Made by a program: the position numbers and the translations under genes. The notes under the pieces were generated by a model. The model saw nothing but the letters and a program-made list of their open reading frames with translations. It made no database searches and was not told the origin of the DNA. Below, one piece after another: positions 54,174-58,057 of a stretch of DNA of 64,000 bases; position 1 is the stretch's first letter, and each line of letters starts with the position of its first letter. The stretch is from assembly GCA_019323015.1 (NCBI GenBank), contig JAHWHY010000008.1, forward strand, positions 225 to 64,224, written 5' to 3'. The DNA is from Candidatus Woesearchaeota archaeon. GTDB taxonomy: Archaea > Nanobdellota > Nanobdellia > Woesearchaeales > ARS49.

Positions 54174-54512
54174 TCAAACTTTCTCCTGCACCAGATACAG
54201 TAGAATAGGCAGAGCCTCTTTTTTCTTTTCCATATTCTTGATGGCTTTTTTCAGCTCTTCATAAGAGGCATAAAAACTCATTTTATAGCTGAACTTGGTT
54301 CTTCTCTGCCTGAGTTGAGGGAATTGCTTGACAAAATTCTTTCTTACTCTAATTGTATTCCAGCATCTAGCATTATTATCATAAGACATAACACCCTTGG
54401 CTTCAAGAGTATCATACCAAGGACGCAAGACCAACCCCATACTTACATTATATAAGAACTCCTTAATTAAATACACTCCATAGCCTATAAGAGGCCACGG
54501 GCCATGGCCCAT
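54174..54512 (-). CDS. hypothetical small protein (start uncertain: 54512, 54440 or 54389)
   Basis: A 112-aa maximal ORF. Its first ~24 codons overlap the operator-like repeats, so a downstream ATG may be the real start. Confidence 0.35.
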   Translation of the reverse strand: MGHGPWPLIGYGVYLIKEFLYNVSMGLVLRPWYDTLEAKGVMSYDNNARCWNTIRVRKNFVKQFPQLRQRRTKFSYKMSFYASYEELKKAIKNMEKKKEALPILLYLVQEKV

Positions 54513-54549
54513 AGCTTATAAGAGGACATGGAGAGTGTACGTTTATAAA
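54486..54549 (-). promoter_or_regulatory. promoter/operator copy A: TATA box plus two direct TATAAGAGG(C/A)CA(C/T)GG motifs
   Basis: TTTATAAA lies at 54542-54549. The motif copies are at 54486-54500 and 54517-54531. The block 54521-54549 matches 57974-58002 at 24 of 29 positions (hand alignment). Confidence 0.5.
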
Positions 54550-54571
54550 AAGAACTATTTTGATTAGTATT

Positions 54572-55540
54572 TTAGGTAATATGGGCCCATTTTCTATTTT
54601 TATTTCTATATTTAGGATATTCACTTAAATATTTATCTGCAAGTTTAAAATCATTATCTTTTGAAAAAATAAATTGTGTGGATGAAAATATCTGTAAATT
54701 ATTTTCATATATCACTCTGCCCTCAATCACATATTCTTTATCGGGCAACAAATCCACCAACCTAAAATTAACTTTTTCATTAATTTTTGAAATCTTGGCA
54801 CGATAATTTGGGTCTTTTATTGTTTTAGACTTAGATAAATCCCTTATTCTTGTATTGGGATCCAATAAGATTAATAATAACCTATGAGAAAGAGGAAAAT
54901 GCAATTGAAAACCCTTGCATTTTAAACCCATATTACTTACGAAGGGATCAGATTCTAATTCATTATAAAATACAATTGGATTATCTGATGTCCAGAAAGG
55001 CATTTTCGTATTATTAATACATAATTTCCAAGATAATTCTGTTTGTATTATTTTAGATATGTCTTCAATAAAAGAAAATATTGAACTTATATGTAACCGT
55101 TTCAGGCTATCCTCTGTAAGAGTAACTTGTCCTTCTTTAAAATCAGCTAATTGAGACTTACCAATCTTATCAAATAATCCATCGCAGATTTGCTTGTATG
55201 TTAATCTAAACTGTTTGGTTCTAAATAATTGCGCAGCAATAAAATAAGATAGAACTTTTTTATCTGATTCATTCAATTTATCTAAATCTTCAGCTTGAAT
55301 AAGTTTTTGCAGAGGTATATTAAATTCGGACTCAATTTTGCTAAATATTTTTTCTGTTATCTGGGTTTCATCAATATCATAAAAATAATTCTCGCAGGCA
55401 ATTTTTCTAATATTCGCTTGAAAACATTTTTTATTTTCTTTGTTATACACAAATAAATATTTTTCTTTATTCCTTTGCGTAGAAAATCCTTTTAAATATA
55501 ATTGAGGAACGTAATGTTGTTTTTTTATTTTATGCGACAT
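54572..55540 (-). CDS. DUF4238-like protein
   Basis: The N-terminus MSHKIKKQHYVPQLYLKGFS matches the hallmark HYVPQ.YL..F start of DUF4238 proteins. The length is 322 aa. Confidence 0.6.
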   Translation of the reverse strand: MSHKIKKQHYVPQLYLKGFSTQRNKEKYLFVYNKENKKCFQANIRKIACENYFYDIDETQITEKIFSKIESEFNIPLQKLIQAEDLDKLNESDKKVLSYFIAAQLFRTKQFRLTYKQICDGLFDKIGKSQLADFKEGQVTLTEDSLKRLHISSIFSFIEDISKIIQTELSWKLCINNTKMPFWTSDNPIVFYNELESDPFVSNMGLKCKGFQLHFPLSHRLLLILLDPNTRIRDLSKSKTIKDPNYRAKISKINEKVNFRLVDLLPDKEYVIEGRVIYENNLQIFSSTQFIFSKDNDFKLADKYLSEYPKYRNKNRKWAHIT

Positions 55541-55591
55541 ACAATTTTATAAAAGTACCGGCAGTTATAAAATTATCTAAAGTTAATTAGA

Positions 55592-56557
55592 TCAATTATG
55601 TTCCCAGCTCAAATTAAATTTCAATCCGCCAGGAATATTCTGCATTCTCCAGTATAAGAATCTTTGCCCGCCAGAATCATATGATATTGGCTGTAAGCAG
55701 AGAAAGTCTTTTGTCAGTGATTTCTTGCCGACTACATCTAACTGAATGCTTTTTTCTATGATCTTGTGATTCAAAGGCAGTTCTATGATGAAAGTAAAGA
55801 ATTTTATTGGATACGCTTTTGTATCTATGCAATAATCCCATTGCTTGTAAACATTTTTCAGCATTTCTGGCCAGTCATATTCATACCAGAAGTCAACACA
55901 ATCTCCTTTTTTCAAAGGTTTTCTGAAATTGACTTTGAAATGTTTTTTGGTTGTGTCATCAACAATCATTTCTTTGGATTTTATGTTTTCAGACAATTTT
56001 AATCTGAAAGTATTCTGCAAAGGAGTATCGCTTGTAATGTCATAAAAAGCATGAGTCAATGGTTTGTCAGTTGGATTTCTTAGACACCAATTATACCATA
56101 TTCTGCAAAGGCTTTCTCCATCTACTTTTATTCTGATAAATACGTGTTCATAATAAGGATTTTTCTTGCTGAATACTTTTGGCTTTTCTCCGCTTATTAT
56201 TTCATTAAAGTTATTCAATGCTTGCCATAATCTTTCACCTTTTTCTGTGATTGCATATTTTCCATAGTCTCTTTTTTCTATCAGGCCTTGATCTATAAAT
56301 GCAGTAAAGACTTTTTTCCTGCTTGACCTGGAATTACTGAATAATTCATCTAATTCCCGTTTGATATTGTTATCAAGCAGATTAATATTTCTCCAGCACA
56401 TCAACTTGGAGAAAATCTGAATCCTGAATCCAAGGCCTTCTTTAAGAATTGAGCTTGGGCATAAAGAACTTACGAGCTGATGGAATTCACTAGCATTTTG
56501 GCATAATCTTTGGTGTTCTGCACCTAATTGAATCCTTGATTTACGAAGTATTGGCAT
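55592..56557 (-). CDS. putative winged-helix protein with an unknown C-terminal domain
   Basis: KVFTAFIDQGLIEKRDYGKYAITEKGERLWQAL looks like the recognition helix plus wing of a wHTH. It overlaps the upstream gene by 17 nt. Confidence 0.45.
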   Translation of the reverse strand: MPILRKSRIQLGAEHQRLCQNASEFHQLVSSLCPSSILKEGLGFRIQIFSKLMCWRNINLLDNNIKRELDELFSNSRSSRKKVFTAFIDQGLIEKRDYGKYAITEKGERLWQALNNFNEIISGEKPKVFSKKNPYYEHVFIRIKVDGESLCRIWYNWCLRNPTDKPLTHAFYDITSDTPLQNTFRLKLSENIKSKEMIVDDTTKKHFKVNFRKPLKKGDCVDFWYEYDWPEMLKNVYKQWDYCIDTKAYPIKFFTFIIELPLNHKIIEKSIQLDVVGKKSLTKDFLCLQPISYDSGGQRFLYWRMQNIPGGLKFNLSWEHN

Positions 56558-57686
56558 ACTTCACAGCTCCGACCTCCAGGTAATTCTTGGTGGTATCGTA
56601 ACAAACCTTGCCCTTGTTGACCGTAATGAGGAAAAAACCTTTCTGAAGCTCTCTGAGCGCCTTTAAAGTGGCCTTCCGGTCAAGACTGTGTTGTTTAATC
56701 AGATCATTTACCTTCATCTTTTTCTTTAGTAATCCTGCAACGTGGTAAGCCATGGGGCTTATGCGCAGTGAATGCTGTACAGAAATAAAATAATCTGCAA
56801 TTCTATCAAGTTCAGGAGTCCAGCCACCTTTTTTAATCTTTATTTTATTATATTTTCCTTGTAAACATAATTTTTCAGCTTCCCTGATATGATTTCTTCC
56901 TTTTTTAATCAGGTTAATCATTCCTTTGATTCCAATATTCTTGTATAACAGACAAGCCTGGACTAATGCTTCTCTATACAGGTCTAGTAATTCCTGTGTT
57001 TTATAATAACTGAATTTGGAGTGATAATTAATGTTCTTTGCTTTGTCAAAGCCTTCAATCAAACCAAATAAATATATTGATCCGACAAAATCACAAATCC
57101 CTTCTTCCAGTCCTCTGGAAATTGTGTTATCTTTCTTTGTATACTGATTAATGATTATATGAATCAATTCATGGCACAAATTTTTTGTAATTGCAAAGCT
57201 CTGCATAATCTTATCTTTTCTCAGATAAATTCCTGGTGTTATGTCATCATCTTCCTCTTCTTCTTCATCTTTGTCAAAAAAAGCGCATAACCAATTCATT
57301 TTATGATATGGTTTTGGAAAAGTGTCTACAATAAAATATTCTGGAAAATTATCTGTCAAACCAAGTTTTTTACAGATTTTTTTCAGCTTGGCATAGTTTG
57401 TTTTCAGATCATCCATTGGCTTGGGAATATTCACATTCTTAAGTGTATCCCGAATCTTCTCCAAGTCCCTAGACAATAAAATCCTCTGAGCCTTTTCATT
57501 GTCAACAACCCCCTTATTATTTTTATAATCTTTAATCAAAGAATTGATTTTTTTCAAAACTGCCTTTTTGGAATAAGGCAAGGGCTCGAAAAATTTGACA
57601 AACCTGTTTCTAAAGAAAACATAGTCACAAAAATCACATCTAGTAATCATCAGTGCAGATTGAAAATAGCTTCCCCCGTTAACCAT
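56541..57686 (-). CDS. HExxH metallopeptidase-like protein (M78/ImmA-IrrE-like motif spacing)
   Basis: NLCHELIHIIINQYTKKDNTISRGLEEGICDFVG has HExxH plus a downstream E-x-x-x-x-F element as in DUF955/M78. The start is moved to ATG 57686, which has GGGGGT 6 nt upstream. Confidence 0.5.
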   Translation of the reverse strand: MVNGGSYFQSALMITRCDFCDYVFFRNRFVKFFEPLPYSKKAVLKKINSLIKDYKNNKGVVDNEKAQRILLSRDLEKIRDTLKNVNIPKPMDDLKTNYAKLKKICKKLGLTDNFPEYFIVDTFPKPYHKMNWLCAFFDKDEEEEEDDDITPGIYLRKDKIMQSFAITKNLCHELIHIIINQYTKKDNTISRGLEEGICDFVGSIYLFGLIEGFDKAKNINYHSKFSYYKTQELLDLYREALVQACLLYKNIGIKGMINLIKKGRNHIREAEKLCLQGKYNKIKIKKGGWTPELDRIADYFISVQHSLRISPMAYHVAGLLKKKMKVNDLIKQHSLDRKATLKALRELQKGFFLITVNKGKVCYDTTKNYLEVGAVKYANTS

Positions 57687-57721
57687 TTTCCGACCCCCTA
57701 AAAGAAAAAAAGGGCGCACCT

Positions 57722-57901
57722 TTATGGTGCTGAGCCTCCACCTCCGCCGCCAATACTTTCTCTTTGCGAATACGGTCCTGATCCACCGCCTCCGCCACCA
57801 ATTCTGGCTCTCACGTACATGTCTTGAGGCAAAGCGCTCTCATACAAAGGTTTTAGCTCTTTATCTAGAGCTAAACTTTCCAGACTTTCGTATTTTTTCA
57901 T
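57722..57901 (-). CDS. 59-aa peptide with two IGGGGGGS runs
   Basis: Hand translation is MKKYESLESLALDKELKPLYESALPQDMYVRARIGGGGGGSGPYSQRESIGGGGGGSAP. GGGGGTG lies 6 nt upstream of ATG 57901. The stop is 35 nt upstream of the proposed ATG 57686 start of the HExxH gene. Confidence 0.5.
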   Translation of the reverse strand: MKKYESLESLALDKELKPLYESALPQDMYVRARIGGGGGGSGPYSQRESIGGGGGGSAP

Positions 57902-57961
57902 ACCACACACCCCCACAGTATGTTATGAATTCGGAAGATGTCCAACTATATAAAATGTTCT

Positions 57962-58002
57962 CCGTGGCCTCTTAGAGGACACGAAGCGTATACGTATATA
58001 AA
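57962..58002 (-). promoter_or_regulatory. promoter/operator copy B: TATA box plus a near-palindromic GTGGCCTCTTAGAGGACAC
   Basis: TATATAAA lies at 57995-58002 (minus-sense TTTATATA). The 19-nt imperfect palindrome at 57964-57982 is built from the same TAAGAGG(C/A)CAC half-site as copy A. Confidence 0.5.
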
Positions 58003-58057
58003 TGAAGAGGGAGTATAAAAAATTAGAGATTATAAATTATATAAAAATCGTCTATAT

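What the first reader, a model, noticed from the sequence alone, without database searches (positions are those of the whole stretch)
57722..57901. 59-aa peptide with two IGGGGGGS runs encoded directly upstream of an HExxH protein
Seen in the sequence: there is a well-placed SD (GGGGGTG, 6 nt upstream) and an ATG. The peptide has an acidic, helical-looking N-terminal half (MKKYESLESLALDKELKPLYESALPQDMY). Its C-terminal half contains two near-identical units, RIGGGGGGS and SIGGGGGGS, encoded by similar but not identical DNA (ATTGGTGGCGGAGGCGGTGGATCA / ATTGGCGGCGGAGGTGGAGGCTCA). The stop is 35 nt upstream of the proposed ATG 57686 start of the HExxH-motif gene (2 nt if the GTG 57719 track start is used).
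Inference: the leader-plus-Gly-rich-core layout next to a putative metallopeptidase resembles a precursor or substrate peptide (RiPP-like or protease-gated). It could also be a disordered adaptor, or not translated at all.
Basis: partly seen in the sequence, partly recalled or inferred. Interest (0 to 1): 0.6.

Follow-up and report, generated by a model that had tools for sequence, protein, structure and literature searches.

The report
Glycine-run peptide paired with zinc peptidase
The 59-codon gene is real and under protein-level selection, and it belongs to an undescribed family of tiny glycine-motif peptides that archaea and bacteria encode directly in front of one family of zinc-protease-like proteins, so it is most likely that enzyme's own substrate or precursor peptide.

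Summary
On the minus strand, 57722-57901 encodes a 59-aa peptide with a Shine-Dalgarno (SD) site 6 nt upstream and two I-G6-S units.

- **Rarity.** The 1.15-Mb archaeal genome has only 12 runs of five or more Gly in six frames. Two of them lie in this ORF.
- **Selection.** Variants in three other contigs give dN/dS of about 0.1.
- **Recurrence.** In 16 distinct homologous loci (20-90% identical HExxH), all but one carry a small SD-led ORF with a Gly motif directly upstream. A shuffle control expected about 1 hit in 19 locus entries. A distant paralogous subfamily has none (0 of 6).
- **Peptide types.** They range from leader plus Gly runs in archaeal loci to 9-12-aa micro-ORFs (MWQEGNGDGD, MEIGNGGGGGK).
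- **Context elsewhere.** In the micro-ORF loci the pair sits with a two-TM protein and a B12 or SPASM radical-SAM enzyme. In six loci a strong hairpin follows the micro-ORF.
- **The enzyme.** The HExxH protein has about 283 representative clusters and no curated family. It is a DA1-like gluzincin with invariant HExxH and Glu, plus a C-terminal winged helix.

Best reading (about 0.5): a leader-plus-two-core substrate or precursor cut by the peptidase. Rivals are a pseudo-substrate or ligand role and a regulatory uORF. No processing or expression data were obtainable. I found no description in the papers or libraries searched, and the scan has not reported this family on other DNA.

The parts
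57722..57901 (-). 59-aa peptide gene. It has a leader-like N-terminal half (residues 1-32) and two I-G6-S units.
   Evidence: JGI called the same gene on an identical contig. Variants P0004, P0005 and the L002 43-mer were found. dN/dS is 0.09-0.12.
57908..57914 (-). Shine-Dalgarno site GGGGGTG, 6 nt before the ATG
   Evidence: Read. GTGGGGGTGT is invariant in the four aligned loci.
57779..57805 (-). Unit 1, R-I-G6-S (residues 33-41)
   Evidence: Read. Gly is kept across loci while the third codon positions vary. The same (E/R/S)-I-G-(G/N)-G-G motif occurs in L002, L005 and the L021 micro-ORFs.
57731..57757 (-). Unit 2, S-I-G6-S (residues 49-57)
   Evidence: Read. It is present in L005 and L006 and absent from L002, which has one unit.
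57700..57711 (-). T-run TTTTTTTCTTTT between the peptide stop and the HExxH SD. It looks like an archaeal oligo-T terminator (inferred).
   Evidence: Read. T-runs stand at the same place in L005 and L006 but not in L002. The bacterial-type relatives have a strong hairpin at the equivalent place.
56541..57686 (-). 381-aa HExxH protein: a DA1-like gluzincin core (H172, E173, H176, E194) with a C-terminal winged helix (about residues 315-365)
   Evidence: The family has 283 representative clusters. Invariant columns are P124, H172, E173, H176, E194, G196 and R264 in 65 sequences. DA1-like PF12315 hits 28 of 65 members weakly, best E 4.5e-6. Weak winged-helix matches came from the PDB profile search.
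55592..56557 (-). 321-aa partner protein, overlapping the HExxH gene by 17 nt: a winged helix (about residues 60-120) and a beta-rich C-terminal domain
   Evidence: It is kept next to the HExxH gene in L002, L003, L008 and L019 at 29-59% identity to the window's copy. Pfam gives weak HTH_45 and HVO_A0261_N hits. The AF2 model is poor, pLDDT 56. Foldseek gives only a weak lead to the M1-peptidase N-domain and to MarR/ArsR.
57947..58047 (-). Conserved promoter region. It holds AT-rich/TATA-like boxes at about 58027-58047, 57995-58002 and 57947-57955, and an imperfect palindrome CGTGTCCTC-TAA-GAGGCCACG at 57963-57983.
   Evidence: It is conserved in the window, L006, L005 and L002, and homology between these loci begins here. 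The genome encodes TBP, so TATA-type promoters apply. No Rfam family matches.
54480..54560 (-). Second, doubled copy of the palindrome unit ((A/G)TG(T/G)CCTCTTATA(A/G)GCTATGG, twice) in front of the 112-aa ORF 54174-54512. It is a possible second operator or a cassette boundary.
   Evidence: Read. One unit matched the genome pattern search. The link to the peptide operon is inferred.

Best explanation
**Shown**
- 57722-57901(-) is a translated gene under purifying selection.
- It is the first gene of a horizontally moving cassette: peptide, HExxH-winged-helix protein, then a 321-aa winged-helix/beta-domain partner.
- It belongs to a family of Gly-motif small peptides that are encoded directly upstream of this one HExxH protein family in DPANN-type archaea and in other, probably bacterial, metagenomic lineages.

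**Inferred**
- The peptide is the cognate substrate or precursor of the zinc peptidase.
- The conserved amphipathic N-terminal segment ((S/T)-L-x-E-x-h-h-L ... P ... Y) acts as a recognition leader. It is probably held by one of the two winged-helix domains.
- The two (R/S)-I-G6-S units are the parts presented to the HExxH/Glu active site and released as short Gly-rich peptides. The window's peptide would then be a two-core precursor.
- The T-run after the stop lets the peptide transcript outnumber the enzyme transcript.
- The palindrome in the promoter is the likely site of autoregulation by a winged-helix protein of the cassette.

In related branches the same peptide-peptidase pair is joined to a two-TM protein and a B12 or SPASM radical-SAM enzyme, which is a RiPP-like layout. 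The archaeal branch has swapped these for the soluble partner.
For: 1. **Real gene.** It has an SD and an ATG. JGI called it as a gene. Differences are 10 synonymous to 4 non-synonymous against L006 and 22 to 11 against L005, giving dN/dS 0.10 and 0.09. Replacements against L002 are conservative: K/R, L/M, D/E, S/T.
2. **Cassette moves as a unit.** The upstream genes differ in the window (GHKL ATPase), L002 (SDH protease), L005 (HD/OB protein) and L006, while homology starts at the promoter. GC is low at 0.27-0.38, against 0.385 for the genome.
3. **Pairing is specific.**
   - Gly-motif ORFs stand upstream of HExxH in L008/L026 (MIRMGDGTGGSGSFGGGAKRA), both L019 copies, L023 and L025.
   - They also stand in L021 (MEIGNGGGGGK and MGIGNGGSK), L022 (MWLHGDGGH) and L024.
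   - The MWQ type is in L027, L030, L032, L033, L035 and L037 (MWQxGNGxxD).
   - The count was 15 of 19 against 1.07 expected. Only L020 lacks one. The distant paralogue subfamily has 0 of 6.
4. **Peptide type follows enzyme clade and partner type**. The two tandem cassettes of L019 each carry their own, different peptide.
5. **Active-site residues.** HExxH and Glu are invariant in 65 divergent members.
6. **RiPP-like context of relatives.** A B12 radical-SAM enzyme is present in seven lineages (six MWQ loci plus L022) and a SPASM radical-SAM in L021. 11-17-bp hairpins follow the micro-ORFs and are not predicted to pair with them.
7. **L003.** This type-A operon continues with an alpha/alpha-toroid protein, DUF362 and a marginal Peptidase_C39-like protein.
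Against: - No cleavage, modification or expression data exist.
- The window's cassette has no modifying enzyme or exporter.
- A poly-Gly core has no side chains to modify.
- No PqqD/RRE domain was detected in 65 members.
- The 9-12-aa relatives have no leader, so 'leader recognition' cannot be general.
- Both AF2 models are poor (pLDDT 40 and 56), so no structural support exists.
- The peptide is as conserved as the enzyme (or more so) in the MWQ clade. That fits a cofactor, signal or arrest peptide as well as a substrate.
- The co-occurrence counts come from about 16 lineages that are related to each other.
Confidence: 0.5

Rival explanations
1. The peptide is a trans-acting partner that is not consumed. 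It could be a pseudo-substrate or pro-peptide-like inhibitor that keeps the zincin silent, with the Gly run lying in the cleft. It could instead be a small ligand or signal that sets the DNA-binding state of the HExxH-winged-helix protein or the winged-helix partner on the promoter palindrome.
For: - There are two winged-helix domains in the cassette and a conserved palindrome in the promoter, with further copies at 54.5 kb and on contig C13.
- The MWQxGNGxxD peptides are at least as conserved as their enzymes, which are 51-63% identical.
- The cassette lies in defence-island or mobile contexts: HerA/GHKL/MTase and DUF4238 here, and KAP NTPase, UvrD, TnpV and IS110 elsewhere.
- The host genome's large proteins carry poly-Gly linkers that the peptide could mimic.
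Against: - No known inhibitor or signal family matches.
- The peptides have no signal sequence, and type A has no exporter.
- Radical-SAM partners in the relatives point to chemical modification of a peptide rather than mere binding.
- Two repeated units, or two tandem micro-ORFs in L021, fit product dosage better than a 1:1 ligand.
Confidence: 0.25
2. The small ORF is a cis-regulatory leader (uORF). Ribosomes slow or stall on the Gly run or the G(N/D)GG motif, and this controls termination at the following T-run or hairpin and hence expression of the HExxH operon. This would resemble amino-acid-run leader peptides or arrest peptides.
For: - It is a short SD-led ORF with a run of one amino acid directly upstream of an operon.
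- It is followed by an oligo-T tract in the window, L005 and L006, or by a hairpin starting 5-20 nt after the stop in six micro-ORF loci.
- ORF length varies from 9 to 91 codons while the Gly motif is kept.
Against: - Gly codons are mixed (GGT, GGC, GGA) and change synonymously between loci.
- Non-Gly residues (W, Q, N, D) and the leader helix are conserved at the amino-acid level.
- No alternative antiterminator pairing with the ORF is predicted.
- No Rfam leader or riboswitch matches.
- L002, L008 and L025 have only 4-21 nt and no terminator between the genes.
- The downstream genes are not Gly metabolism.
- Tandem L019 cassettes carry divergent peptides.
Confidence: 0.15
3. The ORF is not a gene. 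It is a chance open frame over a G-rich (GGN)n DNA or RNA element, for example a G-quadruplex or a repeat.
For: (GGN)6 tracts could form G-rich structures. The opposite strand and other frames are also open over this stretch.
Against: - dN/dS is about 0.1 with many synonymous changes.
- The SD and start are conserved.
- There is amino-acid-level conservation of the non-Gly N-terminal half, and homologous peptides stand in loci with no DNA similarity.
Confidence: 0.03

Closest known systems
RiPP precursor plus leader-peptidase cassettes, for example class III lanthipeptide precursors with M1 zinc peptidases (AplP/EryP) and multi-core precursors such as cyanobactin PatE
   Same: - A small gene sits first in the operon, followed by a terminator or hairpin.
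- The peptide has a leader-like N-terminus and repeated core-like units.
- A gluzincin is encoded next to it.
- Relatives sit beside radical-SAM enzymes.
   Different: - The window's cassette has no modifying enzyme, RRE or exporter.
- The 'core' is only Ile, Gly and Ser.
- The peptidase is DA1-like, not M1, M16 or subtilisin.
- No product is known.
Biarylitides (BytA, pentapeptide MRYYH) and other minimal, leaderless RiPP precursors (PMC12951456, found)
   Same: Relatives of this peptide are 9-12-codon leaderless micro-ORFs next to a dedicated tailoring enzyme.
   Different: The enzyme here is a B12 or SPASM radical-SAM, not a P450. The window's peptide has a 32-residue N-terminal extension and no tailoring enzyme.
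DA1-like peptidase domain (Pfam PF12315; plant DA1 ubiquitin-activated peptidases)
   Same: It has the HExxH motif followed by (L)EEGxC. From my own knowledge of plant DA1, that family reads HEMMH...EEGICQ.
   Different: - Hits are below the Pfam cut-off (best 4.5e-6; 28 of 65 members).
- There are no LIM or UIM domains.
- It has a prokaryotic C-terminal winged helix.
- It is paired with a micro-peptide.
Amino-acid-run leader peptides of attenuators (hisL, pheL, leuL)
   Same: A tiny ORF with a run of one residue stands upstream of an operon and before a terminator-like element.
   Different: - Gly codons are mixed.
- Other residues are conserved.
- No antiterminator is predicted.
- The host is an archaeon.
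- The downstream genes are unrelated to Gly supply.
ImmA/IrrE (M78) peptidase with HTH repressor modules. This was another first-stage note's reading (e1-3233796).
   Same: An HExxH protein next to a helix-turn-helix protein on mobile DNA.
   Different: - Peptidase_M78 matched only 1 of 65 family members, at E 0.0074.
- The gene order differs.
- The small peptide has no counterpart in those modules.
Double-glycine leader bacteriocins with C39 peptidase exporters; microcin B17 (Gly-rich McbA)
   Same: Gly-Gly-containing small peptides that are processed by a dedicated protease.
   Different: - There is no LSxxELxxIxGG spacing.
- The cassette has no C39-ABC exporter. Only a marginal stand-alone C39-like gene occurs in L003.
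- There are no Ser or Cys residues for azole formation.

Membership tests
RiPP biosynthetic cassette (generic definition) | A ribosomal precursor peptide is encoded with its processing genes | tested here: met
   A small ORF under selection stands directly upstream of the HExxH gene in 15 of 16 distinct loci.
RiPP biosynthetic cassette (generic definition) | A post-translational modification enzyme is in the same cluster | tested here: not met
   The window's cassette has only HExxH, the winged-helix/beta partner and DUF4238. The feature is met only in relatives: a B12 radical-SAM in seven lineages and a SPASM radical-SAM in L021.
RiPP biosynthetic cassette (generic definition) | A leader-recognition element (PqqD-like RRE) | tested here: not met
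   There was no PqqD hit in 65 HExxH members or 5 partners at E <= 0.01-0.05. Generic winged helices are present but are not shown to be RREs.
RiPP biosynthetic cassette (generic definition) | A modified or cleaved peptide product | not testable with these tools
   This needs mass spectrometry.
DA1-like peptidase (PF12315) | Match above the Pfam gathering score | tested here: not met
   The window protein had no hit at E <= 0.01. Among members the best E was 4.5e-6, and the three member scores shown are 15.8-22.2 bits against a cut-off of 25.
DA1-like peptidase (PF12315) | HExxH plus a downstream EEGxC-type Glu (gluzincin ligands) | tested here: met
   H172, E173, H176, E194 and G196 are invariant in 65 sequences.
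ImmA/IrrE M78 peptidase (PF06114) | Profile match | tested here: not met
   1 of 65 members matched, at E 0.0074. The window protein did not match.
Leader-peptide attenuator | Alternative terminator and antiterminator structures that overlap the ORF | tested here: not met
   MFE folds keep the hairpin separate from the ORF in six loci. There is no Rfam leader. The archaeal loci L002, L008 and L025 lack any terminator.
Leader-peptide attenuator | Effect on downstream expression in cis | not testable with these tools
   This needs reporter assays.
Double-glycine (C39/PCAT) bacteriocin precursor | Consensus leader ending in GG at fixed spacing, plus a C39-ABC exporter nearby | tested here: not met
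   No such spacing is present in the peptide. There is no C39 or ABC gene at 52-64 kb of the window.
Known anti-phage defence system (PADLOC-DB 2.0) | Profile match of the cassette proteins | tested here: not met
   The peptide, HExxH and partner gave no hits. Only the neighbouring genes matched, namely HerA and DUF4238.

The most novel reading that the evidence does not exclude
The window's peptide is one member of an undescribed class of ribosomal Gly-motif micro-peptides, 9 to about 90 aa, with core G-(N/D/G)-G-G. The class is spread across DPANN archaea and bacteria and is obligately paired with a DA1-like zincin-winged-helix protein. The pair forms the core of a new peptide-maturation or peptide-signalling system. 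Different branches have completed it with either a TM protein plus a B12 or SPASM radical-SAM enzyme, or, in archaea, a soluble winged-helix/beta-domain subunit. In the archaeal form a two-core precursor is cut into oligoglycine peptides with a function of their own.
Probability: 0.4. Interest if true: 0.75.

Novelty: new variant of a known kind. Interest (0 to 1): 0.62.

Why it matters
- **Missed genes.** Gene callers miss most of these micro-ORFs. In L021, L022, L027-L038 and L008 they were uncalled or swallowed by a mis-set start. A protein family with about 283 representative clusters has therefore stayed without a partner or a function.
- **A testable pair.** Linking the family to a conserved Gly-motif peptide gives a concrete substrate-and-enzyme pair to test. 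It points to a peptide system shared by bacteria and DPANN archaea, a group from which, to my knowledge, no modified or processed peptide has been characterised.
- **Oligoglycine product.** If the product is an oligoglycine peptide, it would be an unusual product, because its core has no side chains.

Tried and rejected
- **Structure.** AF2 with shallow alignments gave unusable models: HExxH pLDDT 40 and partner pLDDT 56. Foldseek on the partner gave only low TM-scores of 0.25-0.30 to the M1-peptidase N-domain and OST1, so I treat it as a lead only.
- **Curated libraries.** Pfam, NCBIfam and PADLOC gave no family for the peptide or the HExxH protein and only weak, below-cutoff winged-helix hits for the partner. 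NCBIfam gave only a negligible SagF-like hit for the two-TM protein. The PDB profile search gave only weak winged-helix hits.
- **Partner homology.** hhalign found no homology between the archaeal partner and the TM protein of the other branch.
- **Other collections.** There were no relatives in plasmids, phages or IMG/VR viral contigs.
- **Papers.** Searches for the peptide strings and for B12-rSAM/HExxH/DA1-like combinations found nothing relevant.
- **Readings rejected.** The M78/ImmA reading and the double-glycine/C39 reading are rejected (see the membership tests). A chance ORF or G-rich element is rejected on dN/dS.

Full report
**Observation.**
- Read on the minus strand, 57722-57901 is a 59-codon ORF. 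The ATG is at 57901, and GGGGGTG at 57908-57914 lies exactly 6 nt upstream.
- The product is MKKYESLESLALDKELKPLYESALPQDMYVRARIGGGGGGSGPYSQRESIGGGGGGSAP.
- The two units are RIGGGGGGS (57779-57805) and SIGGGGGGS (57731-57757).
- The stop is 35 nt before ATG 57686 of the HExxH gene. Homologues support that start rather than GTG 57719.
- The genome is a 1.15-Mb, 95%-complete assembly that encodes TBP. A same-class relative is labelled 'MAG: archaeon'. Earlier notes of this scan call it a DPANN archaeon, which I did not test further.
- Six-frame translation of the whole genome (GC 38.5%) holds only 12 runs of at least 5 Gly. Two are in this ORF and nine of the other ten lie in open frames of 500-1400 codons.

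**Is it a gene?**
- A protein search with the peptide found two variants, P0004 (59 aa) and P0005 (57 aa).
- A 67%-identical HExxH homologue (L002) is preceded by a 43-aa version with a single I-G6 unit: MELYETLKKVVLEEEFRPMYEANTPQRMYKKNEIGGGGGGRGR.
- Nei-Gojobori counts give 10 synonymous to 4 non-synonymous differences against L006 and 22 to 11 against L005. That is dN/dS 0.10 and 0.09, close to the 0.04-0.11 of the HExxH gene itself.
- The SD and ATG are invariant. JGI's gene caller also called the ORF on an identical contig.

**The cassette.**
- In the window, L002, L005 and L006 the genes upstream differ. They are a GHKL ATPase, an SDH-type protease, an HD/OB protein and another gene. DNA homology begins about 150 nt before the peptide ATG.
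- That conserved stretch holds AT-rich/TATA-like boxes and an imperfect palindrome, CGTGTCCTC-TAA-GAGGCCACG, at 57963-57983.
- A doubled version of the palindrome unit stands before the 112-aa ORF at 54174-54512. An orphan copy lies on contig C13.
- Downstream, a 321-aa protein overlaps the HExxH gene by 17 nt. It is kept in L002, L003, L008 and L019. It has a weak winged-helix match and a beta-rich C-terminal domain.
- GC falls to 0.27-0.38 across the cassette.
- The unit is thus a mobile three-gene cassette (peptide, HExxH, partner). Here it is dropped between a methylase/NurA/HerA/GHKL block and a DUF4238 gene.

**The HExxH family.**
- A profile search of 1.84 billion representatives found 283 clusters, 216 of them at E <= 1e-10, nearly all 370-400 aa.
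- In a 65-sequence alignment P124, H172, E173, H176, E194, G196 and R264 are invariant. That is HExxH plus a Glu 18 residues after the second His, within LEEGICD.
- Pfam gives only weak DA1-like hits: 28 of 65 members, best E 4.5e-6. M78 matched in one member only.
- The C-terminal ~50 residues resemble GntR-type winged helices weakly.
- The protein is best described as a DA1-like gluzincin with a winged helix. It is not in Pfam, NCBIfam or PADLOC as a family.

**The pairing is general.** I read the DNA upstream of every homologue I could fetch.

*Archaeal-type loci (with the 321-aa partner where the contig allows)*

| Locus | Peptide |
|---|---|
| L008/L026 | MIRMGDGTGGSGSFGGGAKRA, with a taggaggt SD |
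| L019, first cassette | 47 aa, ...CEIGTPTGPGGIY... |
| L019, second cassette | 76 aa, ...GRGGGSGPK |
| L023 | ...AGGGGSSGGGK |
| L025 | ...HGPGGGGGDSDGNGS... |

All the L019, L023 and L025 peptides share an N-terminal (S/T)-L-x-E-x-h-h-L segment with the window's peptide.

*Loci where the HExxH gene is followed by a two-TM protein*

| Locus | Peptide | Radical-SAM enzyme |
|---|---|---|
| L021 | MEIGNGGGGGK and MGIGNGGSK, each with a strong SD | SPASM type, upstream |
| L022 | MWLHGDGGH | B12 type, upstream |
| L027, L030, L032, L033, L035, L037 | MWQ(Q/E/N)GNG..D | B12 type, downstream |

- L024, whose contig ends just after the HExxH gene, has MDDGGSDG....
- Only L020 lacks such an ORF.
- With a fixed rule (an ATG-ORF of at least 7 codons with at least 3 Gly in 5 residues, within 250 nt upstream), 15 of 19 locus entries score, against 1.07 expected from dinucleotide shuffles. 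Some entries are near-duplicates.
- Six loci of a distant paralogous subfamily that sits in core-genome contexts score 0 of 6.
- In the MWQ clade the enzymes are 51-63% identical, while the peptide keeps M, W, Q, G, N and G throughout and a terminal acidic residue in most, with synonymous codon changes.
- On the HExxH tree the peptide type follows the clade and the partner type. Because relatives share labels, this is suggestive rather than a test.

**Mechanism.** What is shown is co-inheritance, selection on the peptide, and intact catalytic residues.
- *Substrate or precursor (confidence about 0.5).* This is the simplest reading. The peptide gene stands first and is followed by an oligo-T tract in the window, L005 and L006. 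In the micro-ORF loci it is followed by 11-17-bp hairpins that differ in sequence and do not pair with the ORF. That is the usual layout of structural genes in peptide operons. Relatives recruit radical-SAM enzymes. The window's peptide has a conserved leader and two copies of the motif, where L021 has two separate genes. Tandem cassettes in L019 carry their own divergent peptides. One type-A operon (L003) continues with an alpha/alpha-toroid protein, DUF362 and a marginal C39-like peptidase.
- *Against it.* No enzyme in the window's cassette could modify a peptide. Gly has no side chain. No RRE is detectable. Nothing is known about products.
- *Non-consumed inhibitor or ligand (0.25).* This fits the two winged helices, the promoter palindromes, the defence-island and mobile contexts, and the high conservation of the micro-peptides.
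- *Cis-acting leader uORF (0.15).* This fits the run of one residue before a terminator-like element. It fits poorly with the mixed and drifting Gly codons, the conserved non-Gly residues, the lack of an antiterminator and the tight gene spacing in L002, L008 and L025.
- *Chance ORF.* This is essentially excluded.

**Comparison with known systems.** It works most like a RiPP-type precursor and peptidase cassette, but it fails two defining features in this window: there is no modifying enzyme and no RRE. It is not an M78/ImmA module, not a double-glycine/C39 bacteriocin and not a listed defence system (see the membership tests). I found no paper holding the peptide strings or describing the gene set.

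**Limits.**
- Both structure predictions were run on shallow alignments and are unusable.
- Contexts could be read for about 16 distinct lineages out of 283 clusters.
- The domain assignment of the micro-ORF lineages as bacterial is inferred from neighbouring genes only.

**Verdict.** This is a real, undescribed peptide-peptidase family whose function is still to be shown. Interest 0.62.

Noticed in passing
L027 4904-8827; L030 4603-8481; L032 577-4489; L033 4806-8654; L035 941-4979; L037 428-4640: A conserved four-part cluster in probably bacterial metagenome contigs. It consists of the 10-12-codon micro-ORF MWQxGNGxxD, a strong hairpin, a DA1-like HExxH protein, a ~390-aa two-TM protein and a B12-binding radical-SAM enzyme. 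The micro-ORF is uncalled, or swallowed by a mis-set start, in every record. It looks like an undescribed leaderless RiPP-like cluster.
   Followed up: partly
L021 2722-2757 and 2850-2879: Two tandem micro-ORFs, MEIGNGGGGGK and MGIGNGGSK, each with a strong SD. They lie between a radical-SAM/SPASM gene and the HExxH gene.
   Followed up: partly
window 54480-54560; G000:C13:81986-82005 (L039 about 1460-1545): The roughly 75-nt promoter/palindrome element of the peptide operon recurs. A doubled form stands before the 112-aa ORF 54174-54512. An orphan copy lies next to a Dam-like methylase on another contig. It may be an operator of a small regulon or a cassette boundary.
   Followed up: partly
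L019 1414-5846; L023: Two complete peptide-HExxH-partner cassettes stand in tandem. Their HExxH proteins are only 31% identical, and each cassette has its own peptide.
   Followed up: partly
L003 1779-4392: Downstream of a type-A HExxH/partner pair there are three further genes: an alpha/alpha-toroid protein (SQHop_cyclase_C, 52 bits), DUF362, and a 205-aa protein just over the Peptidase_C39 cut-off (23.1 against 22 bits). On the opposite strand at the far end of the same contig there are an archaeal-type ATPase and an integrase.
   Followed up: no
G000 contigs C8 (82825), C10 (14545, 60847), C14 (50539): Large open frames of this genome (830-1423 codons) carry G6-G8 linkers followed by Ser (GGGGGGGGSS). 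The peptide's I-G6-S units resemble these linkers.
   Followed up: no
L009, L013, L043-L046: A distant paralogous subfamily of about 370-aa HExxH proteins (MINLSELRVIEDAFF...) sits in core-genome contexts of related archaea, next to histidyl-tRNA synthetase in L009. It has no upstream Gly micro-ORF.
   Followed up: partly
L005 2323-2856: The contig end repeats the HExxH C-terminus and the partner N-terminus in inverted orientation. This is probably an assembly chimera.
   Followed up: no
window 54572-57900: GC drops to 0.27-0.32 across the DUF4238 and partner genes, against 0.385 for the genome. This fits recent acquisition of the cassette.
   Followed up: yes
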